A DNA stretch of 64,000 nt. Origin: an uncultured Candidatus Saccharibacteria bacterium. Its GTDB lineage: Bacteria > Patescibacteriota > Minisyncoccia > Phycocordibacterales > UBA9973. The stretch's first letter is position 1, and every line of letters begins with the position of its first letter. The translations under genes were made by a program, and so were the position numbers. The notes beneath the pieces were generated by a model. That model searched no databases and was not told the DNA's origin. It saw only the letters and a program-made list of their open reading frames with translations. Positions 1,259 through 58,998 of the stretch are shown here, one piece after another. The stretch covers positions 24,910 to 88,909 of the forward strand of contig CAZADR010000003.1 of the NCBI GenBank assembly GCA_964484005.1, written 5' to 3'.

Positions 1259-2107
1259 ATGCAAGAAGAAAACGAATTTGATAATTTTTTAGGAATACCA
1301 GAGATTTTACCAGAGGACTCAGATGTCCTCATTTTGCCTATTCCGCTAGAGCTCACTGTGAGCTATGGAAAAGGCACAAAAAACGGCCCAAAGGCAATAA
1401 TAGAAGCCTCAAAGCATGTGGAGCTATATGATCACGAGCTTGGTTATGAGGTAGACAGTAAGGTTAAAATAGCTACCTTGCCTGCAGTCGAAATTAATAC
1501 TGAAGTTCCAGAAGAGGCACAAAAAATCATTTCAAAAGCCATAGAACCATGGACAGAAAAATTTGTTTTAAGTCTAGGAGGAGAACACTCTATCACTCCA
1601 GCGCTCATAAGTGAATATCAAAAAAAATATTCTGATTTATCTATTTTGTATTTCGATGCACATACTGATATGAGAGAGGAATGGGGTGGAACAAAATGGT
1701 CTCATGCTTGTGCGGCACGAAGATGCCAAGAAGGGGGAATAAAAAATATAGTTTGGGTCGGCACCAGAAATACTGCATTATCTGAACAACAATACATAAA
1801 TACTGAACAGGTAAATTATGGAAATAAATACGATTTGAAAAAAATCTTGAGTCAGCTATCTCCAAATGTTTATATTTCTTTTGATATTGATTGTTTTGAT
1901 GTGTCTACTATGCCAGCTACGGGCACACCTGAGCCGGGAGGAATAAGTTGGTATCAAGCGATGGAAATATTTGAAGCTGTGACTAGGGAGAAAAATGTAG
2001 TTGGAGCAGATATCGCTGAATGCGCACCAATAGAAAAACTGCATGGGTATGATTTCTTGGTAGCTAAACTCGCTTTCAAACTAATTGGTTATAAATTTAG
2101 AAAATAG
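1259..2107 (+). CDS. speB: Arginase/agmatinase-family ureohydrolase
   Basis: Ureohydrolase motifs GGEHSIT, DAHTDMR and SFDIDCFD (Mn-binding Asp/His). Confidence 0.65.
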   Translation: MQEENEFDNFLGIPEILPEDSDVLILPIPLELTVSYGKGTKNGPKAIIEASKHVELYDHELGYEVDSKVKIATLPAVEINTEVPEEAQKIISKAIEPWTEKFVLSLGGEHSITPALISEYQKKYSDLSILYFDAHTDMREEWGGTKWSHACAARRCQEGGIKNIVWVGTRNTALSEQQYINTEQVNYGNKYDLKKILSQLSPNVYISFDIDCFDVSTMPATGTPEPGGISWYQAMEIFEAVTREKNVVGADIAECAPIEKLHGYDFLVAKLAFKLIGYKFRK

Positions 2108-2121
2108 AACTATTCCATCGT

Positions 2122-2152
2122 TTGACAAAGCTCTATATCCTTGTAATATAAA
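2122..2152 (+). promoter_or_regulatory. Sigma70-like promoter (TTGACA, 16-17 nt spacer, TAATAT) for the 2205-2642 cassette gene
   Basis: A consensus -35 TTGACA at 2122, then a 16-17 nt spacer and an A/T-rich -10. An AGGAG RBS lies 6 nt before the ATG at 2205. Confidence 0.5.
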
Positions 2153-2204
2153 CACGGGTTAGTTGTTTATATTAACCATTAATTTTCTCTAGAAAGGAGA
2201 AAAC

Positions 2205-2642
2205 ATGAAATTTGGTCTGATTGAAATGGATCGAACGATTCCTCCGACCTACCCCCTTTGGAAGAAAAGGTTGCTCCATCCTGAGCTCGAGTGTGCAGGC
2301 CCTGACGAGTACTACCTTTCGTCCGTTGGACTCTGGCTTCTTGAAGAGCAGAAGCAGAGAGAAGTCAAGGGAAACGTTGTTTTCAATTTCCTGGAAAGTG
2401 CTTCTTTGTTTAAGTCCTGCCTGAACTTGCAGGACGGACTTGCAATCCAGGGAAAGGGCATCATGCCTTTCCGGGAGCTTTTTGGTGGCATGGCTGTATT
2501 CCTCTGGGCCTCCGCCGTGGAGAGTCAGAACGAGCAGGATAGTGTCCCATACCTCTACGAGCAATGGGGTAAAGTTGAAATCGCCTGGCATTGGCTCGAT
2601 GATACCTGGGACCGCTGGCGCCCCGCGCTCATCTTCCAATAA
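2205..2642 (+). CDS. Hypothetical protein, 145 aa, Trp-rich; compositionally foreign (GC around 50%)
   Basis: Strong RBS (aaAGGAGaaaac-ATG), its own promoter and terminator, and codon usage unlike neighbouring genes. No recognisable domain. Confidence 0.6.
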   Translation: MKFGLIEMDRTIPPTYPLWKKRLLHPELECAGPDEYYLSSVGLWLLEEQKQREVKGNVVFNFLESASLFKSCLNLQDGLAIQGKGIMPFRELFGGMAVFLWASAVESQNEQDSVPYLYEQWGKVEIAWHWLDDTWDRWRPALIFQ

Positions 2643-2659
2643 TCTCAGCAGGCATCACA

Positions 2660-2708
2660 ATAGCCCCGAACGCAAAACATCGCGTTTGGGGCTATTTTAT
2701 ATTTTAGA
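2660..2708 (+). terminator. Rho-independent terminator
   Basis: About 14-bp stem (atagccccgaacgc/gcgtttggggctat), loop aaaacat, followed by ttttatatttt. Confidence 0.7.
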
Positions 2709-4064
2709 AATTTTTTGACCCTCTGGTGTGTCTTTTACTTCGTAGCCAAGAGAATTTATTTCACCTCGAAGTTCATCTGATTTTTTGAAATCTTTGTCAT
2801 TGCGAGCTTGTTCTCTTTCTGTAACTATTTTTTTTATATTTTCTGGTATTTCAATTTCTTTTATATTTTCAAAGCCAAGTCCTAACACTTTATCAAAGTC
2901 TAAAATTGTAGCCTTTTTATCTCCATCTGACATATTTTCATCTTTCATTACATCCCAAAGGAGAGCCAATGCTCGAGGGGTGTCTAAGTCGTCTTCTAGG
3001 TATTCCTTGAACTTATTTTGGTATTCCTGGTGGACTTGCCCTAGTGCACTCCCTAGGCCTAAATAAAGGCCATAAAGGCGTTTTAAGGCTGTTTCAGCAC
3101 CTTCTAATGCTTCCCAGACAAAGTTTACTCTGGTGCGGTAATTTGCCATTAAAAGCCAAAATCTATAGGCTAGGGGATTTATTCCTTTTTCTATTAAGTC
3201 TCTCAAAGTAAAAAAATTATTGAAAGATTTTGCCATCTTTTTTTGGTCCACCAAGACCCACTCATTGTGCATCCAATATTTTACAAATTGTTTACCTGTC
3301 GCTCCTTCGGATTGAGCTATTTCATTTTCGTGATGGGGGAAGATATTGTCTACACCACCAGTGTGTAGGTCTATCTGTTCTCCCAAGTTTTTCATAGACA
3401 TAGCCGAGCATTCTATATGCCAGCCGGGTCGGCCTTTACCTAGACTGGTCTCCCAGAAGACATCTCCATCTTTTTCATCCCAAGATTTCCAAAGAGCAAA
3501 ATCTTGAGCGTTGTCTTTTTCGTATTCATCTGTTTTTATTCGGCCAGAAGCATTTTCTTTTTGTTCTTCTAGTACAAGGTGAGAAAGCTCGCCATAATTT
3601 TTAAATTTTTTTATATCAAAATACACACTGCCATCGGGGCTCTTGTAAGCAAGTTCTTTTTCTAAAAGTGTATTTATAATTTTTACCATCTCATCTACAT
3701 AGTCAGTGGCTTTGGTAAATTTTGTTGGTTCTAAGATGTTTAGAGTTTTAATATCTTTGAAAAATTCTGCAGTATAAAACTCTGTAAACTCCTTTAAGCT
3801 TTTGCCTTCTTTTTGAGAGTCACGAATAGTCTTGTCATCTATGTCGGTGATATTCATGATGTGTTTTACTTTATATCCGCTGTAAGTGAGCACACGCTTT
3901 AAAATATCTGCAAAAATATATGCTCTGTAATTTCCGATATGAGGATAATTGTAAACAGTGGGCCCACAAGAATAAAAAGTTACATGTGGAGGATTTATGG
4001 GGGTAAAAGTTTCTTTTGTTCTAGTTAAGGTGTTATAGACTTGCATTTTGTTTAAAGAATTCAT
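2697..4064 (-). CDS. cysS: Cysteine--tRNA ligase
   Basis: HIGN motif (HIGNYRAY) and KMAKS (KMSKS-like). Class I aaRS architecture. The true start may be the internal Met MQVYNTL at about 4046. Confidence 0.9.
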   Translation of the reverse strand: MNSLNKMQVYNTLTRTKETFTPINPPHVTFYSCGPTVYNYPHIGNYRAYIFADILKRVLTYSGYKVKHIMNITDIDDKTIRDSQKEGKSLKEFTEFYTAEFFKDIKTLNILEPTKFTKATDYVDEMVKIINTLLEKELAYKSPDGSVYFDIKKFKNYGELSHLVLEEQKENASGRIKTDEYEKDNAQDFALWKSWDEKDGDVFWETSLGKGRPGWHIECSAMSMKNLGEQIDLHTGGVDNIFPHHENEIAQSEGATGKQFVKYWMHNEWVLVDQKKMAKSFNNFFTLRDLIEKGINPLAYRFWLLMANYRTRVNFVWEALEGAETALKRLYGLYLGLGSALGQVHQEYQNKFKEYLEDDLDTPRALALLWDVMKDENMSDGDKKATILDFDKVLGLGFENIKEIEIPENIKKIVTEREQARNDKDFKKSDELRGEINSLGYEVKDTPEGQKISKI

Positions 4065-5488: not shown

Positions 5489-5489
5489 A

Positions 5490-5526
5490 TTAAAAAGCCC
5501 CGCAATAAGCACGGGGCTTTTTGTTG
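5490..5526. terminator. Bidirectional rho-independent terminator between rplU and the 5551-5784 gene
   Basis: Hairpin aaagccccg-caataag-cacggggcttt with T-runs on both sides. Confidence 0.7.
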
Positions 5527-5550
5527 CGGGGCGAGATCGATGATCCGGCT

Positions 5551-5784
5551 CTATCTTGGCACGATGTTTCTTGCCCAGAGCTTGCCGTTGTACTTGCACT
5601 TGCTCGGCACGAAGAATACGTCACGGGTCGAGCAAGTTGCGTTGTAGTCGAAGCACATGTCATACAACACACTGGCCTCGTCGTCCTTGACTCGGTAGGT
5701 ATTGCCGTCGTTGGCAATGATTTCCATTACGAACTTGCTTGCGGTGAACTTGCGAAGAACCAGGTCCCCAGTTAACTGACACAT
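5551..5784 (-). CDS. Hypothetical small protein, 77 aa, 4 Cys; compositionally foreign (higher GC)
   Basis: A perfect AGGAGG RBS lies 7 nt upstream of the ATG. The promoter is consensus TTGACA/TATAAT. A terminator follows downstream. No recognisable domain. Confidence 0.6.
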   Translation of the reverse strand: MCQLTGDLVLRKFTASKFVMEIIANDGNTYRVKDDEASVLYDMCFDYNATCSTRDVFFVPSKCKYNGKLWARNIVPR

Positions 5785-5793
5785 TTAAAGACC

Positions 5794-5835
5794 CCTCCTA
5801 ATACACATTATACACCTTTAAGAATATTTTGTCAA
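5794..5835 (-). promoter_or_regulatory. Consensus sigma70 promoter (TTGACA, 16-17 nt spacer, TATAAT) plus AGGAGG RBS of the 5551-5784 gene
   Basis: On the minus strand: TTGACAaaatattctaaaggtgTATAATgtgtattAGGAGGggtctttaaATG. An 8-4-8 palindrome aaatagac-tatt-gtctattt lies just upstream at 5833-5852. Confidence 0.6.
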
Positions 5836-5840
5836 ATAGA

Positions 5841-8048: not shown

Positions 8049-9008
8049 ATGTCAAAAAAGATAGTATTATCAGGGGTTCAGGCTTCAGGTAAGCCTCATA
8101 TTGGTAATTATTTTGGTGCTCTTAGGCAATTTGTGGAGCTATCACAGACCCACGATTGTTTTTTTATGATAGCGGACTATCATGCTTTGCATTCTCTTAG
8201 AAATCCAAAGGAGATGAGTGAAAATATTAAAAATGTTTTACTTGATTATTTAGCTATTGGTCTTGATCCCAAAAATGTAACAATTTTTAAACAAAGTGAT
8301 ATTTTGGAACACACCGAACTCGCTTGGATTTTTGATACGATTATTACCATGCCATATCTGATGCGAGCTCATGCTTTTAAAGATGCGCAAGCAAAAAATA
8401 AAGAAATAGATGTCGGCACCTTCAATTACCCTGTGCTTATGGCTGCAGATATTTTACTCTACAGTCCTGACGTTGTGCCTGTCGGTGCTGATCAAAAACA
8501 ACATGTTGAGATAGCTCGCGACATAGCAGAAAAATTTAATAATGTTTATGGAAACGGAGAAGAAACTTTCAAGCTTCCAGAGCCAATGATATTGAAAGAT
8601 GTAGCGGTGGTGCCCGGAACCGATGGACGCAAGATGAGCAAGAGCTACGGAAACACTATTCCTTTATTTGCTTCTCATGAAGAAATTAAAAAATGCGTGA
8701 TGAGTATCGTCACAGATTCAAGCGGAGAACTTCCTCAAAATGTATATGCTATTCACAAGCTCGTGCGACCCGAAGATGAATTAAAAAAAATATATGCTGA
8801 GAAAGCAGGTAAGTACAAAGAGCTCAAAGAAATGCTCGTAGAAGATTTGGAAAAATTTATCGCACCACTTCGCGAAAAAAGAAAAGAATTTGAAAAAGAT
8901 ATTCCAAAAGCACTTGAAATCTTGAAAATGGGTGGTGAAAAAGCGAAGAGTATCGCTTCTAAGAAGATGCAAGAAGTGCGGGAAAAAATCGGAGTGAATA
9001 TTTATTAG
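8049..9008 (+). CDS. trpS: Tryptophan--tRNA ligase
   Basis: HIGH motif (KPHIGNYFGA) and KMSKS (KMSKSYGN). 319 aa, class Ic. Confidence 0.9.
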   Translation: MSKKIVLSGVQASGKPHIGNYFGALRQFVELSQTHDCFFMIADYHALHSLRNPKEMSENIKNVLLDYLAIGLDPKNVTIFKQSDILEHTELAWIFDTIITMPYLMRAHAFKDAQAKNKEIDVGTFNYPVLMAADILLYSPDVVPVGADQKQHVEIARDIAEKFNNVYGNGEETFKLPEPMILKDVAVVPGTDGRKMSKSYGNTIPLFASHEEIKKCVMSIVTDSSGELPQNVYAIHKLVRPEDELKKIYAEKAGKYKELKEMLVEDLEKFIAPLREKRKEFEKDIPKALEILKMGGEKAKSIASKKMQEVREKIGVNIY

Positions 9009-9040
9009 GATTTATTAAAAGTTCTGTTATTATACTTAAT

Positions 9041-10426
9041 ATGAAAAATCGCATTTATATAAAAGATTTAAAAGACAATGTAGGAAAAGAGGTTACTATT
9101 GCTGGATGGGTGGATGTCAGGCGTGACCAAGGCAAGATGGTCTTTTTTGATATGCGAGACATGACCGGGAAAATTCAATGCGTTACTTTGACAATTCATC
9201 CTGAAGCTTTAGAGAAAGCAAAAGAGATTCGCTCTGAATGGGTTCTCGAAGTTAAAGGTTTAGTCAATGAGCGCAAGGATAAAAATGCAGAAAAGGGTGG
9301 CGGTGTTGAGATTGAAGTTACTGATATTGTTGTCTTAAACAAAGCTGAGACTTCACCTTTTCAAATAAATGAAAGTACTGCAGGCATAAACGAGGATTTG
9401 AGAATGAAATACAAATATCTAGATTTGCGTACAGAGAGAATGCAGAAAAATATTCGTATGCGAGATAAAATAATTTCTTTTTTCCGTAAATATATGCACG
9501 ACAATGATTTTATAGAAATTGAAACTCCTATTTTGATGAAAGGTACACCCGAGGGTTCCAGAGAATATGTAGTACCTTCTAGGCTTTTTAATGGGCAGTT
9601 TTATGTCTTACCCCAATCTCCTCAGCAATTTAAGCAGCTTTGTATGGTGGCTGGATTTGAAAAATATTTTCAAGTAGCTCGTTGCATGAGAGATGAAGAT
9701 ACCAGGGGAGATAGGCAGCCAGAATTTACTCAGTTAGATTTTGAGATGTCTTTTATAACGCAAGAAGAAGTTTTGGAATATACCGAAAAAATGTTTATTG
9801 AGCTTATTAAAAATGTTTATCCTGATAAAAAAATAAGCCAAATTCCTTTTCCGAGAATATCTTATGCAGAATCAATAAAAAAATATGGTTCTGATAAACC
9901 CGATATGAGAATAAATAAAGACGACCCAAACGAGCTAGCTTTTGCTTGGATATTGGATTTCCCAATGTTTGAAAAGACTGACGATGGAGAGCTTCAAGCG
10001 GTGCACCATCCATTTTGCTCAATAAAAGAGGAAGACAAAGAAAAATTTTTAAAAGGAGAAGACTTGTTTTCTATCCGTGCCAACGCTTATGACCTCGTAT
10101 TAAATGGCTATGAACTTTCTTCTGGTAGTATTCGTATTCACGAACGAGAAATTCAAAAACAAGTTTTCAGGCTTTTGAATATTAGTGAAGAAGAACAGCA
10201 AAAGAAATTTGGACACATGCTGGAAGCATTTACTTATGGTGCTCCTCCTCATGGTGGTTTTGCTCCGGGGATAGACCGTATTGTTATGATATTGCAAAAT
10301 GAACCAAATATTAGAGAAGTGATAGCTTTTCCAAAAACTGGAGAAGGAAGAGATTTAATGATGGGCTCTCCAGCACCAATAACTGAAAAGCAATTGAAAG
10401 AACTTGGAATAAAATTAGGTAAGTAA
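9041..10426 (+). CDS. aspS: Aspartate--tRNA ligase (short form lacking the GAD insertion; probably non-discriminating)
   Basis: N-terminal OB fold. Class II motifs FYVLPQSPQQFKQ, RDEDTRGDRQPEFTQLDFEM and GGFAPGIDR. Confidence 0.75.
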   Translation: MKNRIYIKDLKDNVGKEVTIAGWVDVRRDQGKMVFFDMRDMTGKIQCVTLTIHPEALEKAKEIRSEWVLEVKGLVNERKDKNAEKGGGVEIEVTDIVVLNKAETSPFQINESTAGINEDLRMKYKYLDLRTERMQKNIRMRDKIISFFRKYMHDNDFIEIETPILMKGTPEGSREYVVPSRLFNGQFYVLPQSPQQFKQLCMVAGFEKYFQVARCMRDEDTRGDRQPEFTQLDFEMSFITQEEVLEYTEKMFIELIKNVYPDKKISQIPFPRISYAESIKKYGSDKPDMRINKDDPNELAFAWILDFPMFEKTDDGELQAVHHPFCSIKEEDKEKFLKGEDLFSIRANAYDLVLNGYELSSGSIRIHEREIQKQVFRLLNISEEEQQKKFGHMLEAFTYGAPPHGGFAPGIDRIVMILQNEPNIREVIAFPKTGEGRDLMMGSPAPITEKQLKELGIKLGK

Positions 10427-10767
10427 TGAATTACACACTAAAGGGTGTCGTGATAAGGGGAGAAGGATACGGTAGAAAAATTGGTTTTCCTACTGTGAAT
10501 TTAGATGTTAAAAATCAAGAGCTTCCAAAAGATGGAGTGTATGCTGGAGTTGCCACATTAGAAGACAAGAAATATAAGACAGGCATTGTAATCGGTGCAA
10601 AAAATATAATTGGTAAAAAAGTGGAAGCGCACCTGCTCGGTTATAGTGGGGATGCATATGGTAAAGAAGTGACACTCGAGGTAGGAAAATTCTTGCGTGA
10701 ATATAAAAATTTCGACACAGAAATAGAATTAATTACTCAAATAAAAGAGGACATAAAAAGAATCTAG
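10426..10767 (+). CDS. Riboflavin kinase domain protein
   Basis: Motif GRKIGFPTVNL and GY...AHLL, typical of the RibF C-terminal / FMN kinase domain. 113 aa. Confidence 0.75.
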   Translation: MNYTLKGVVIRGEGYGRKIGFPTVNLDVKNQELPKDGVYAGVATLEDKKYKTGIVIGAKNIIGKKVEAHLLGYSGDAYGKEVTLEVGKFLREYKNFDTEIELITQIKEDIKRI

Positions 10768-11757: not shown

Positions 11758-12381
11758 TTACCCTAAGGCTTCAAGAAAATTTTTCTCAAAACCCTTTTCA
11801 AAATTACGTGCGAAGTAGTTTTGTCTAACAGCTGGGTCGGCAATTAGTGTGGAGAGGGAATTGATAGGGATTTTCTTCCCGTTTATATCCTTTACCACTT
11901 TACAAGAAAAGATTTTTTTAAAGCTTGGTAATTTTTCTTTTCTTGTGACAGGAACAGCTGCATACCAGATGGCACGCGGGAATTTCCAGTTGTTGCGCTC
12001 TCGCACAAGTGCAACAGTTGTTCCGGAACTGATTACGTCGTCAACTACGACAACGTTTTCAATTTCGGAGTTTATACCCCATCCCATTTGGTGAACCAAT
12101 ACAACCGGTTCACTTCCGGGAGACCAAATTCTTTTTGCAAAAACTTCTTGCGAAAGAAAGTGACCATTGAAACCCAAAGATTTCACTCTCTGGGCACTCT
12201 CTCCAGGGTAGATGAAAAGAGTAGATTCTTGTTTTAGTTCCAGTTGCCTAAAGACGGATTCCTGGAGTTCGGCGATTATAGCCTTTTCATCCAAGAACTG
12301 GACCTGTTGAATCCTCGTTTCCATAAACAAGGAGGTTAAGCGGTGAAATGACCTTCCTAGATCGTTAATAATAATTACCAT
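11758..12381 (-). CDS. Phosphoribosyltransferase-family protein (type I PRTase fold)
   Basis: PRPP-binding motif VVVVDDVISSGTT. AGGAGGAG RBS directly upstream of the ATG. GC is higher than in neighbouring genes. Confidence 0.7.
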   Translation of the reverse strand: MVIIINDLGRSFHRLTSLFMETRIQQVQFLDEKAIIAELQESVFRQLELKQESTLFIYPGESAQRVKSLGFNGHFLSQEVFAKRIWSPGSEPVVLVHQMGWGINSEIENVVVVDDVISSGTTVALVRERNNWKFPRAIWYAAVPVTRKEKLPSFKKIFSCKVVKDINGKKIPINSLSTLIADPAVRQNYFARNFEKGFEKNFLEALG

Positions 12382-58310: not shown

Positions 58311-58350
58311 TAAAAGAAAAAGCCTTGGGCACTGTGGCCCAAGGCTTAAA
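58311..58350 (-). terminator. Rho-independent terminator of the 58370-58903 gene
   Basis: aagccttgggc-caca-gtgcccaaggctt hairpin followed by tttttctttt on the minus strand. Confidence 0.7.
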
Positions 58351-58369
58351 TCATTCGATGTTAAAAAAA

Positions 58370-58903
58370 CTAAACAACCAACTTGAAGACAAAGATATCT
58401 TCACCATCCCACACATACCAAGGTGGGGCAAAGAGTGCATCGAGAGATAGAGTTCCGTCTTCTTTGCACTCTACTACAAACACATCACCGACATCTACTG
58501 TCTCCTTGACTGGAATTGGCTCCATCGCAATTCGGGGGAATTTGTTTTTTGGGTTTATCTCCATGTACTGGTCCAAATATTGGTCTCGCAAAGCAGGACC
58601 AACTTCTGCCGGACATAGATCTCCGACCCTTTTGATGGCATCGAAGATTTCTGTGGTGGTGGCAATCATTTTGCCGGTAAGGTCCACCACGCTTGCTCGG
58701 CAAAGAAAAATCTTCTGCTCCTTTTGGGCCAACGCAAAAGCGGGCTGGCACAAAAAAGCTAAAACCTCTTTCTTAATTTTGAACTTTTCCATTGAAAGAA
58801 GTAGGATTTCAAGTCTCTTGTAGAGACCAATCGTTACTGATCTCCATAGAGAAAACCGTACTTCATGAGTCTGAACTTCCTGTTCAACTGCATGCAAGCT
58901 CAT
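58370..58903 (-). CDS. Hypothetical protein, 177 aa; compositionally foreign (GC around 50%)
   Basis: AAGGAG RBS 5 nt upstream of the ATG at 58903 (MSLHAVEQ...). Its own promoter/operator and terminator. No recognisable domain. The ORF track extends to 58948 without an RBS. Confidence 0.55.
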   Translation of the reverse strand: MSLHAVEQEVQTHEVRFSLWRSVTIGLYKRLEILLLSMEKFKIKKEVLAFLCQPAFALAQKEQKIFLCRASVVDLTGKMIATTTEIFDAIKRVGDLCPAEVGPALRDQYLDQYMEINPKNKFPRIAMEPIPVKETVDVGDVFVVECKEDGTLSLDALFAPPWYVWDGEDIFVFKLVV

Positions 58904-58944
58904 TCTTTCTCCTTTTGTTGTTGTTTTGGTGCAAATATCTAAAA

Positions 58945-58976
58945 ACACAATAACACATATTGTGTAATTGTGTCAA
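58945..58976 (-). promoter_or_regulatory. Promoter -35 (TTGACA) overlapping an operator-like inverted repeat acacaat/attgtgt (x2)
   Basis: acacaat at 58945-58951. attgtgt at 58959-58965 and 58967-58973. tgtcaa (the -35 on the minus strand) at 58971-58976. Confidence 0.4.
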
Positions 58977-58998
58977 TCTAGAATGTATTATACTATTT

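What the first reader, a model, noticed from the sequence alone, without database searches (positions are those of the whole stretch)
2108..2708. Foreign-looking single-gene cassette 1: 145-aa Trp-rich protein with strong promoter, AGGAG RBS and terminator
The 438-nt ORF has GC near 50% and GC-biased codons (ctc, gag, ggc, ccc, cgc), whereas its neighbours use aaa/tta/ata-type codons. A sigma70 promoter (TTGACA, 16-17 nt spacer, TAATAT at about 2122-2150) lies upstream. An AGGAG RBS sits 6 nt before the ATG. A 14-bp-stem terminator follows immediately. Native genes in this window mostly lack any Shine-Dalgarno sequence, so the whole unit looks imported or engineered. The product (…YEQWGKVEIAWHWLDDTWDRWRPALIF) has no domain I recognise. 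Candidate roles include an immunity, anti-defence or effector protein.
Basis: partly seen in the sequence, partly recalled or inferred. Interest (0 to 1): 0.65.

Follow-up and report, generated by a model that had tools for sequence, protein, structure and literature searches.

The report
Orphaned, frozen DGR variable-protein gene cassette
This GC-rich, self-contained gene in an AT-rich candidate-phyla-radiation (CPR, Patescibacteria-type) genome is a real imported insert, and it encodes a small binding protein from a family that retroelements normally hypermutate, but this copy has no retroelement and its once-variable surface is now fixed and conserved.

Summary
ORF 2205-2642 (145 aa) has GC 0.516 against 0.362 for the window, and GC3 0.61 against 0.287±0.045 for native ORFs. 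It has a TTGACA-16-TAATAT promoter, an AGGAG Shine-Dalgarno (SD) ribosome-binding site and a 15-bp terminator hairpin. Native genes are SD-poor and often look leaderless.

It is an insertion. In seven related contigs the convergent agmatinase and cysS stop codons lie 3-6 nt apart. Only two very close relatives carry an orthologue.

The protein has no Pfam, PHROG or PADLOC match. It belongs to a large Patescibacteria family (1104 clusters at 50% identity). The typical members are variable proteins of diversity-generating retroelements (DGRs). In six homologous loci the last ~127 nt (the variable region, VR) are repeated 334-415 nt downstream as a template repeat (TR), and 14-23 mismatches fall almost only on TR adenines. 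Four of these loci also show Avd and a reverse transcriptase (RT).

The window copy has no TR, Avd, RT or the family's post-VR hairpin. Its former hypervariable codons are conserved among three orthologues (dN/dS about 0.1). The sequence is identical in eight assemblies.

The predicted fold is a divergent C-type lectin (CLec) fold. GC-richness is a family-wide trait.

Best reading: an orphaned, frozen DGR-derived binding protein, expressed from its own cassette. An immunity or anti-defence role is unsupported.

The parts
2108..2696 (+). Whole inserted cassette (589 bp). It fills exactly the gap between the agmatinase stop codon (2105-2107) and the cysS stop codon (2697-2699, minus strand).
   Evidence: The site is empty in L038, L039, L040, L044, L050, L051 and L054, where the two stop codons are 3-6 nt apart. 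The cassette is present in L036 and L037.
2122..2149 (+). Sigma-70-type promoter, TTGACA-16-TAATAT.
   Evidence: 10/12 matches. The -35 is identical and the -10 is TAATAT or TAGTAT in orthologues L036 and L037.
2156..2204 (+). Predicted 5' leader of about 49 nt, with the SD AGGAG at 2195-2199, 5 nt before the ATG. The 5' end is inferred from the -10 box.
   Evidence: Sequence. AGAAAGGAG is conserved in L036 and L037. AGGAG/GGAGG occurs upstream of only 3 of 59 ORFs in the window.
2205..2642 (+). Coding sequence for a 145-aa acidic protein (pI 4.9) with no signal peptide or TM segment. It contains only the domain of a Patescibacterial DGR variable-protein family, and its predicted fold is a divergent C-type lectin fold.
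2517..2636 (+). VR-equivalent segment (VESQNEQDSVPYLYEQWGKVEIAWHWLDDTWDRWRPALIF). It is homologous to the adenine-mutagenised variable region of DGR-linked family members, but here it is fixed.
   Evidence: Aligns to the TR-encoded consensus VQNxNGNLNVPYLYENGxKVVVNWNWLDNNWNSNNPALRF. The 12 family-hypervariable positions are nearly invariant among window, L036 and L037, and they include Q, Q and W, which AAC cannot reach by adenine changes. No TR copy in the window.
2659..2696 (+). Intrinsic-terminator hairpin (15-bp stem, 8-nt loop) followed by a T-run that overlaps the cysS stop and 3' end.
   Evidence: -26.4 kcal/mol, z = -6.9. The stem is kept in L036 and L037 through compensatory changes. 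It is not homologous to the nested post-VR hairpin of DGR-type members.
1259..2107 (+). Left flank: agmatinase/arginase-family gene with host composition.
   Evidence: Pfam PF00491, E = 1.1e-55. GC3 0.27.
2697..4064 (-). Right flank: cysteinyl-tRNA synthetase gene, convergent, with host composition.
   Evidence: Pfam PF01406, E = 3.5e-109. GC3 0.30.

Best explanation
ORF145 is a stand-alone, DGR-less descendant of a DGR variable protein.

The family: it is a large, unannotated family that, apart from two doubtfully labelled bins, is found in Patescibacteria. It consists of small proteins that look cytoplasmic. The C-terminal ~42 residues of a divergent C-type-lectin-fold domain form the variable region. 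In typical members this region is rewritten by a neighbouring retroelement made of a template repeat (TR), bAvd and a reverse transcriptase.

The window lineage: only the binding-domain gene is present. It sits in a 589-bp cassette (promoter, leader, SD, ORF, terminator) inserted exactly between the stop codons of the convergent agmatinase and cysS genes. The TR, Avd, RT and the family's conserved post-VR hairpin are all absent. The formerly hypervariable codons have been frozen and are now kept by purifying selection. I infer that the protein binds one fixed ligand through the former variable face.

Its high GC and GC3 and its SD-dependent translation are inherited traits of the DGR-target gene family, only partly ameliorated toward the host.

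Shown: family membership, DGR linkage of homologues, insertion and empty site, absence of DGR parts within 64 kb, absence of variation, and purifying selection.

Inferred: the CLec fold (moderate support), the ligand-binding function, cytoplasmic location, and the direction of evolution (loss of DGR linkage rather than never having had it).
For: 1. Real gene under selection. There are 38 homologues with 44-73% identity over 97% or more of the length for all but two of them. dN/dS is 0.08-0.10 in both the core and the VR-equivalent among window, L036 and L037.

2. The family is a DGR-target family.
- In L007, L011, L020, L021, L024 and L031 the last 126-129 nt of the gene recur 334-415 nt downstream. 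TR-adenine mismatches out of all mismatches are 22/23, 18/18, 18/19, 23/24, 16/17 and 14/15. L030 has a partial 62-nt pair.
- The TRs encode AAC-rich VQNxNGNLNVPYLYENGxKVVVNWNWLDNNWNSNNPALRF.
- bAvd (PF22296, 42 bits) and RVT_1 (E = 1.3e-23) follow in L007. Homologues of both follow in L011, L020 and L021.
- Among 34 other members, the TR-'N' positions carry 9-13 residue types, while scaffold positions are invariant. Close pairs are 85% identical in the core but 61% in the VR.

3. The window lacks the DGR.
- No TR-like repeat.
- No RT or Avd homologue in 64 kb.
- The nested post-VR hairpin is absent. That hairpin is supported by covariation in 15 loci: 81% of cells paired against 40-49% in slid controls.

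4. The VR is frozen.
- The same 620 nt occur in eight assemblies: the window plus contigs from seven samples. Exact-string identity was tested on six of those contigs; the seventh was retrieved through an exact match of the neighbouring protein and its 145-aa gene was not compared.
- The VR-equivalent is as conserved as the core in the clade, 75% against 72%.
- 3 of 12 former hypervariable positions hold Q, Q and W, which AAC cannot reach. In contrast, 101 of 179 family representatives have none.

5. It is an insertion. The site is empty in seven relatives.

6. GC excess is family-wide. Gene GC is 0.50-0.64 against flank GC of 0.31-0.43 in most of 30 loci. The window clade is intermediate between DGR-linked members (GC3 about 0.8-0.9) and host-like members such as L028 and L029.

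8. Tree. In an NJ tree of 180 family members the window clade is nested inside a 64-member clade that includes DGR-type sequences.
Against: - Only 64 kb of the genome, plus a few kb of extension, could be inspected. DGRs can act on remote targets, so a TR elsewhere cannot be excluded directly.
- About two thirds of the family loci examined lack a TR within their flanks, so DGR linkage is not universal. The window clade could descend from a branch that was never DGR-linked.
- The NJ tree has no support values.
- Synonymous divergence of the ORF among the three orthologues is more than twice that of the flanking genes. This could mean allele replacement by recombination rather than simple vertical descent.
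- No ligand, partner or phenotype is known.
Confidence: 0.72

Rival explanations
1. The gene is still an active DGR target, diversified in trans by a DGR located elsewhere in the genome (a remote target).
For: Remote targets are documented for some DGRs (PMC5758913). Several family loci (L012, L014, L018) have no TR within about 10 kb downstream, yet they keep the post-VR hairpin and a DGR-like residue repertoire. The rest of this genome could not be searched.
Against: - The same cassette sequence occurs in eight assemblies.
- The hypervariable positions are conserved among three orthologues whose synonymous sites are saturated.
- Q, Q and W sit at former AAC positions, and scaffold positions have changed: 121 W against G in 29 of 34 other members, 137 R against S in 28, 143 I/V against R in 31.
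- The conserved post-VR hairpin is missing and is replaced by a plain terminator.
Confidence: 0.07
2. The window clade represents a branch of the family that was never DGR-linked. It would be an ordinary small binding protein that DGRs recruited elsewhere, acquired here by horizontal transfer from a GC-richer donor.
For: About two thirds of the loci examined show no TR. 34 of 179 family representatives have two or more residues unreachable from AAC at the 12 positions. The nearest tree neighbours (P0128, P0038, P0179, P0150) are also of this kind.
Against: - The clade is nested within a clade that contains DGR-type sequences.
- It keeps the exact VR scaffold (VPYLYE..KV..W.W.D..W...PAL.F), and 9 of 12 positions hold AAC-reachable residues.
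- Its intermediate GC3 fits amelioration from the GC3-rich DGR-linked state.
Confidence: 0.12
3. A phage- or mobile-element-derived immunity, anti-defence or effector gene unrelated to DGR biology.
For: The unit is foreign in composition, has its own promoter and terminator, and sits in an insertion hotspot. Unrelated cassettes occupy the same site in L055 and in L041/L042.
Against: - No PADLOC or PHROG hit.
- No family member in 2.9 million viral contigs, and no BFVD structural match.
- No integrase, toxin or partner gene is adjacent.
- Homology to DGR variable proteins fully accounts for the sequence.
Confidence: 0.06
4. Not a protein gene. Instead a GC-rich structured non-coding RNA (as often stands out in AT-rich genomes), or an assembly or engineering artefact.
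For: A GC-rich island bounded by a promoter and a terminator in an AT-rich genome is the typical signature of a structured RNA.
Against: - No Rfam match at gathering threshold, and none with E below 0.15.
- Homologues align as protein without frameshifts at 44-73% identity.
- dN/dS is about 0.1 with saturated synonymous sites.
- The locus is found in eight independent assemblies and in two diverged orthologous loci.
Confidence: 0.02

Closest known systems
DGR variable proteins with a C-type lectin fold: Mtd of Bordetella phage BPP-1, TvpA of Treponema denticola, the archaeal AvpA and Thermus TaqVP (PMC2408619, PMC5006420, PMC6328139)
   Different: - No detectable sequence similarity to any of them or to FGE-sulfatase/DUF1566 Pfam models.
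- Structural similarity is weak.
- The window gene itself has no TR, Avd or RT and no variation.
Patescibacteria/CPR-restricted cellular DGRs ('clade 2' of Roux et al. 2021, PMC8144416; also Paul et al. 2017, not readable here)
   Same: Homologue-bearing genomes are almost all Patescibacteria MAGs. As reported for that clade, the targets lack recognisable transmembrane or conserved domains. The paper predicted that such uncharacterised VR domains are new CLec variants, which my model supports.
   Different: I could not check whether this exact protein cluster is in their catalogue. The window copy is a DGR-less derivative, which their RT-anchored approach would not have detected.
DGR target-recognition hairpin/cruciform downstream of the VR (Guo et al. 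2011, PMC3240598)
   Same: DGR-type family members carry a covarying hairpin starting 6-10 nt after the stop codon. This is the position where BPP-1-type DGRs need a hairpin for retrohoming.
   Different: The family element is a three-tiered hairpin of about 42 nt with a U-rich loop. It is not a 7-10 bp GC stem with a GRNA tetraloop. The window has only a plain terminator hairpin, with no homology to the family element.
Genomic islets: horizontally acquired single-gene insertions at convergent-gene junctions
   Same: Precise insertion between two stop codons, deviant GC3, own promoter and terminator, and different inserts at the same site in relatives.
   Different: No integrase, att repeats, target-site duplication or IS ends were found. 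The integration mechanism is unknown.

Membership tests
Active DGR target (variable protein of a functioning DGR) | VR paired with a TR that differs only at TR adenines | tested here: not met
   No second copy of 2440-2670 anywhere in the 64-kb window by permissive blastn or by tblastn with the TR consensus peptide. The feature is met in homologous loci L007, L011, L020, L021, L024 and L031.
Active DGR target (variable protein of a functioning DGR) | DGR reverse transcriptase and Avd accessory gene in the neighbourhood | tested here: not met
   tblastn with the L007 RT and Avd finds L011, L020 and L021 but nothing in the window at E of 1e-3 or below. The flanks are agmatinase and cysS. The rest of the genome could not be tested.
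Active DGR target (variable protein of a functioning DGR) | Hairpin/cruciform recognition element just downstream of the VR | tested here: not met
   The family's nested hairpin (15 loci, covariation score 0.278 against 0.035-0.111 in slid controls) is absent. The window, L036 and L037 have an unrelated terminator hairpin.
Active DGR target (variable protein of a functioning DGR) | Sequence hypervariation of the VR between strains or populations | tested here: not met
   The same 620 nt occur in contigs from seven samples besides the window; exact identity was tested on six of them. VR-equivalent identity is 75% against 72% for the core among three orthologues, and dN/dS in the VR-equivalent is 0.04-0.07 where calculable. 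Read-level variation was not testable.
Patescibacterial DGR variable-protein family (homology) | Significant full-length sequence similarity and the conserved motifs (HPELECxGP, SCLNLQDGLAIQxKG, FLW.S, VPYLYE, W.W, PAL.F) | tested here: met
   phmmer E of 1e-27 to 1e-69 over 97% or more of the query for 35 homologues, weaker or shorter for two. 17 invariant columns. The profile search scores P0001 at 7e-61 among 1104 representatives.
C-type lectin fold (as used by DGR variable proteins and FGE-like domains) | Three-dimensional similarity to CLec-fold structures | tested here: inconclusive
Known structured RNA families (Rfam 15) | Covariance-model match at or near gathering score | tested here: not met
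   Only tRNAs in the window at gathering threshold. The best hit in 1900-2900 has E = 0.15 and is far below its cut-off.
Anti-phage defence, anti-defence or phage protein families | Match to PADLOC or PHROG models, or presence on viral contigs | tested here: not met
   No PADLOC hit, no PHROG hit, no relative in IMG/VR and no BFVD structural match.
Horizontally inserted cassette | Empty site in related genomes plus deviant composition | tested here: met
   Seven syntenic relatives have the two stop codons 3-6 nt apart. GC3 is about 7 SD above native genes.

The most novel reading that the evidence does not exclude
A DGR 'matured' a binding specificity. The resulting variable-protein gene was then copied away from its retroelement as a self-sufficient expression cassette and fixed. 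This would be a bacterial analogue of hard-wiring one selected receptor.

In this reading it is one of several GC-rich, SD-dependent single-gene cassettes that turn over at convergent-gene junctions in otherwise SD-poor, leaderless Patescibacteria genomes, by an unknown integrase-independent route.

A linked possibility is that the strong synonymous GC enrichment of DGR target genes, but not of their own RT and Avd genes, is actively maintained while the gene is DGR-linked and decays after orphaning. That would be an unrecognised constraint or by-product of mutagenic retrohoming.
Probability: 0.25. Interest if true: 0.65.

Novelty: new variant of a known kind. Interest (0 to 1): 0.45.

Why it matters
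It turns an apparent ORFan into a member of a very large, unannotated protein family (1104 clusters at 50% identity) that serves as DGR targets in Patescibacteria.

It also gives a clear natural example of what happens to a hypervariable receptor gene once it leaves its retroelement. The variable face is frozen and then conserved, and the composition drifts toward the host.

The three-orthologue clade, set beside its DGR-linked relatives, offers a contrast for asking which ligands these CPR proteins bind.

Two side observations could be checked on existing DGR catalogues:
- target genes are synonymously GC-rich while their own RT and Avd genes are not;
- SD-bearing cassettes turn over at junction hotspots in a genome whose native genes mostly look leaderless.

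These bear on DGR mechanism and on gene flow and translation initiation in CPR bacteria.

Tried and rejected
- Structured-RNA hypothesis for the GC island. Rfam at gathering and permissive thresholds gave nothing, and the coding signal is strong. Rejected.
- Library annotation of the protein. Pfam, PHROGs, PADLOC and PDB sequences all gave no hit.
- Foldseek against PDB and BFVD gave nothing significant. The afdb50 library was unavailable.
- My first TR scan used an unsupported blastn scoring set and returned false negatives. I repeated it with valid parameters.
- RNAalifold on the post-VR element predicted only 3 pairs. A manually specified nested structure was then tested and supported with pair counts.
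- Attempts to extend beyond the window to look for a DGR recovered only shorter sibling contigs: about 2.8 kb upstream (a TrwB-like ATPase) and about 4 kb downstream (ATP synthase genes). No RT was found.
- Search for remnants of the ORF145 cassette in the other inserts at the agmatinase-cysS site (L041/L042, L048, L055) found none.
- Search for shared boundary repeats, att sites or target duplications around the cassette found none.
- Paul et al. 2017 (PMC5436926) could not be read. A literature search for 'orphan' or 'remnant' DGR targets found nothing relevant.

Full report
**1. The observation**

- GC is 0.516 against 0.362 for the window. This is z = 4.0 and is the highest 438-nt peak in the 64 kb.
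- The excess sits at synonymous sites. GC1/2/3 are 0.575/0.363/0.61, while 52 native ORFs of 150 aa or more have GC3 of 0.287 ± 0.045 with a maximum of 0.449.
- The promoter TTGACA-16-TAATAT lies at 2122-2149 (10/12 matches).
- AGGAG lies at 2195-2199, 5 nt before the ATG.
- A 15-bp-stem hairpin lies at 2659-2696 (-26.4 kcal/mol, z = -6.9) and is followed by a T-run.

The remark that native genes lack SD sequences is correct and striking.
- Only 7 of 59 ORFs have an SD core, which equals the 10% background.
- Only 3 of 59 have AGGAG or GGAGG.
- 13 of 59 have a TANAAT box ending 2-10 nt before the ATG, against a 2.5% background. Many native genes therefore look leaderless.

**2. Coding or RNA?**

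A GC island bounded by a promoter and a terminator in an AT-rich genome could be a structured RNA. The evidence shows a protein gene under purifying selection.
- Rfam finds nothing there.
- The translation has 38 homologues with 44-73% identity, over 97% or more of its length for all but two, with no frameshifts.
- Among the window and two orthologous loci, dN/dS is 0.08-0.10 with near-saturated synonymous sites.

**3. What the family is**

No Pfam, PHROG, PADLOC or PDB-sequence match exists. The alignment shows a strongly conserved core: HPELECxGP, SCLNLQDGLAIQxKG and FLWxS. It is followed by a C-terminal ~42 residues in which invariant scaffold residues (VP.L, V, W.W, PAL.F) alternate with positions that carry 9-13 different residues, almost only N, D, S, Y, H, G, R, F, L, C, I and V. 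That pattern is the signature of adenine mutagenesis of AAC codons by a diversity-generating retroelement.

Direct evidence for DGRs comes from the homologous loci.
- In L007 the last 127 nt of the homologue (8455-8581) recur at 8991-9117. There are 23 mismatches, and 22 of them lie at adenines of the downstream copy.
- The same holds in L011 (18/18), L020 (18/19), L021 (23/24), L024 (16/17) and L031 (14/15). L030 has a partial pair.
- The template repeats encode VQNxNGNLNVPYLYENGxKVVVNWNWLDNNWNSNNPALRF.
- They are followed by a bAvd-family gene (PF22296) and an RVT_1 reverse transcriptase.
- Homologue-bearing genomes are almost all Patescibacteria MAGs, such as Nomurabacteria, Zambryskibacteria, Moraniibacteria and Paceibacterota.
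- None is on IMG/VR viral contigs. [quoted passage not shown]
- A profile search finds 1104 clusters at 50% identity (817 at E of 1e-10 or below). Most are 145-250 aa with the domain at the C-terminus.

**4. Fold**

An AlphaFold2 model built on the 38-sequence alignment is confident (pLDDT 94.5, pTM 0.88).
- Foldseek finds nothing significant in PDB or BFVD.

The protein has no hydrophobic segment or signal peptide. One relative (P0086) is fused to a ClpX-type zinc finger. Both points are hints of a cytoplasmic location.

**5. The window copy is not a working DGR target**

- There is no TR-like repeat in the 64 kb, and no RT or Avd homologue.
- DGR-type members carry a conserved three-tiered hairpin starting 6-10 nt after the stop codon. 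It has 81% of cells paired against 40-49% in slid controls, and 17 double-change cells. This is the position where DGRs need a hairpin/cruciform for retrohoming (PMC3240598). The window, L036 and L037 lack it and have an unrelated terminator instead.
- The VR-equivalent is VESQNEQDSVPYLYEQWGKVEIAWHWLDDTWDRWRPALIF. It holds Q, Q and W at three of the 12 family-hypervariable positions. AAC cannot reach these residues by changing adenines. In contrast, 101 of 179 family representatives have none.
- Several otherwise near-invariant scaffold positions have changed: 121 W, 137 R and 143 I/V.
- The 12 positions are almost identical in the three orthologues (SNQSQAHDTDWR, SNQSQSRDSDWR, SNQSQAHDTDFR), even though their synonymous sites are saturated.
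- The VR-equivalent is as conserved as the core (75% against 72%). In other close family pairs the core is 85% identical and the VR only 61%.
- The same 620 nt occur in contigs from seven metagenome samples besides the window. Exact identity was tested on six of them.

**6. It is an insertion**

Twenty contigs encode agmatinases related to the window's, 18 of them 76-82% identical and two 89-91%. Those with enough flank keep the dnaJ-membrane protein-agmatinase-cysS-permease-rplU-recR order.
- In L038, L039, L040, L044, L050, L051 and L054 the convergent agmatinase and cysS stop codons are separated by 3-6 nt, for example TAAAGATTA.
- The window cassette (2108-2696, 589 bp) fills exactly that gap.
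- Orthologues occur only in L036 and L037 (agmatinase 97-100% identical). They have the same promoter, SD and hairpin, the hairpin being kept through compensatory changes. Both remain GC-rich at 0.48-0.53.
- Other relatives carry unrelated inserts at the same junction: hairpin-like inserts of 34-97 nt, a 443-nt insert (L041/L042), and in L055 a different GC-rich cassette (GC 0.515) with its own promoter, GAAAGGAG SD, 82-aa ORF and terminator.
- No integrase, repeats or target duplication were seen.

The ORF has diverged more than its flanks. Its dS exceeds 1.7, against 0.45-0.77 for the flanking genes, and its dN is about ten times that of agmatinase. This fits accelerated change during amelioration, or allele replacement by recombination. 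cysS itself is mosaic among relatives.

**7. Composition**

The 'foreign' GC is a family trait rather than a property of this one import.
- In most of 30 loci the gene is 0.50-0.64 GC in flanks of 0.31-0.43.
- In DGR-linked members, third positions are about 80-90% G+C even outside the VR. The Avd and RT genes of the same cassettes are close to host composition, 0.36-0.41 in L007, L011 and L020.
- The window clade (GC3 0.61) lies between these and nearly host-like members (L028, L029). This is consistent with amelioration after loss of DGR linkage.
- Why DGR-linked targets keep GC-rich synonymous sites is unexplained. The effect is not adenine-specific outside the VR.

**8. Conclusion**

ORF145 is best explained as an orphaned, frozen DGR variable-protein homologue. 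It is a compact CLec-type binding module expressed from its own SD-dependent cassette. Its once-variable face is fixed and selectively maintained, and I infer it recognises a single ligand.

'Engineered' and the specific immunity, anti-defence or effector roles are not supported.

Remaining uncertainty:
- a remote DGR elsewhere in the genome (about 7%);
- a branch that was never DGR-linked (about 12%);
- the ligand and biological role are unknown.

An NJ tree places the clade inside a group that contains DGR-type members. Its nearest neighbours also look 'frozen'. The tree has no support values.

Noticed in passing
window 5489-5840 (minus strand): A second GC-rich single-gene cassette with the same architecture. 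It has TTGACA (5834-5829)-17-TATAAT, an AGGAGGGG SD, a 77-aa ORF at 5551-5784 (-) with GC 0.51, and a terminator hairpin at about 5494-5522. There is no Pfam or PADLOC hit. Public gene calls annotate an 84-aa ORF on the plus strand instead, which the signals argue against. The rplU-recR junction is nearly empty in L038 (37 nt) and L040 (about 10 nt). It holds other inserts of 467-834 nt in L043, L048 and L051.
   Followed up: partly
window ~58330-58990 (minus strand): A third cassette of the same type. It has a TTGACA promoter, an AAAAGGAGAA SD, an ORF at 58370-58903 (177 aa, GC 0.44, no Pfam or PADLOC hit) and the terminator AAGCCTTGGGCC..GGCCCAAGGCTTTTT. It lies between the ATP-synthase epsilon gene and a methylase gene.
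   Followed up: partly
window, whole (59 ORFs of 120 aa or more): Native genes are SD-poor: 7 of 59 have an SD core, which equals background. 13 of 59 have a TANAAT box ending 2-10 nt upstream of the ATG, against a 2.5% background. This implies widespread leaderless transcripts. AGGAG-type SDs are nearly confined to the GC-rich cassettes plus one PRTase-like gene (11758-12381, minus strand).
   Followed up: partly
L055 505-873; L041 3690-4132 (= L042 2731-3173); L048 5850-5946: The agmatinase-cysS stop-to-stop junction is an insertion hotspot. L055 carries an unrelated GC-rich (0.515) cassette with a promoter, a GAAAGGAG SD, an 82-aa ORF (576-824) and a terminator. L041 and L042 carry a 443-nt insert that shares a 39-nt piece with the 97-nt insert of L048. 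None derives from the ORF145 cassette.
   Followed up: partly
L007 8592-8633 and the equivalent position in L011-L014, L016-L021, L024, L026, L030, L031: A conserved three-tiered hairpin (GGAC..GGGCA..GTGGTC-UUUUU-GACAC..UGCCC..GUCC) starts 6-10 nt after the stop codon of DGR-type family members and is supported by covariation. It is probably the DGR target-recognition element of this CPR DGR lineage. It differs in form from the BPP-1-type GC stem with a GRNA loop.
   Followed up: yes
L007, L011, L020, L021 (target, Avd and RT genes): The DGR target genes are GC 0.58-0.62 (GC3 about 0.8-0.9, including the non-VR core). The Avd and RT genes of the same cassettes are 0.36-0.49 and the flanks are AT-rich. 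This is a family-wide synonymous GC excess of the target gene only. It is unexplained.
   Followed up: partly
About 90 nt upstream of the start codon in L007, L011, L013, L016, L017, L018, L025: A conserved 5' leader element (TTCTGGCTATGACTAC..GGTCAGAGCTCCATCCTCGGATTAGAGGAAAA) lies upstream of many DGR-type family genes. There is no Rfam match. It is absent from the window cassette.
   Followed up: no
L007 7304-7761, 10667-11338, 11100-12830; also L011, L020, L021: DGR cassettes of this family sit within or next to tRNA gene clusters. In L007 a large serine recombinase (576 aa) lies just downstream, which suggests an integrative island. The L007 RT is split into two overlapping ORFs (9468-9854 and 9797-10549), which is either a frameshift or an assembly error.
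   Followed up: no
P0086, P0039, P0040 (family representatives): One family member has an N-terminal ClpX-type C4 zinc finger (PF06689, E = 1.2e-17) fused to the family domain. Two long proteins (792 and 658 aa) each match the family profile in three stretches, possibly three copies of the domain. The ClpX fusion hints at a cytoplasmic role, possibly as a proteolysis adaptor.
   Followed up: no
L038-L054, cysS genes: cysS is mosaic among close relatives. It is 54-59% aa identical to the window in some contigs and 78-82% in others, at similar agmatinase identity (76-91%). This indicates a recombination breakpoint at the agmatinase-cysS junction.
   Followed up: no
L001 193-1668 and L060 216-1691 (just upstream of the window start): A 491-aa TrwB/T4SS-coupling-protein-like ATPase (weak Pfam hits) lies immediately upstream of dnaJ in sibling contigs of the same genome.
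   Followed up: no
L018 1865-1928 (minus strand): A DUF3800-II RNA motif (Rfam RF02961, 63.9 bits) lies about 300 nt upstream of the family gene in a Nomurabacteria contig.
   Followed up: no
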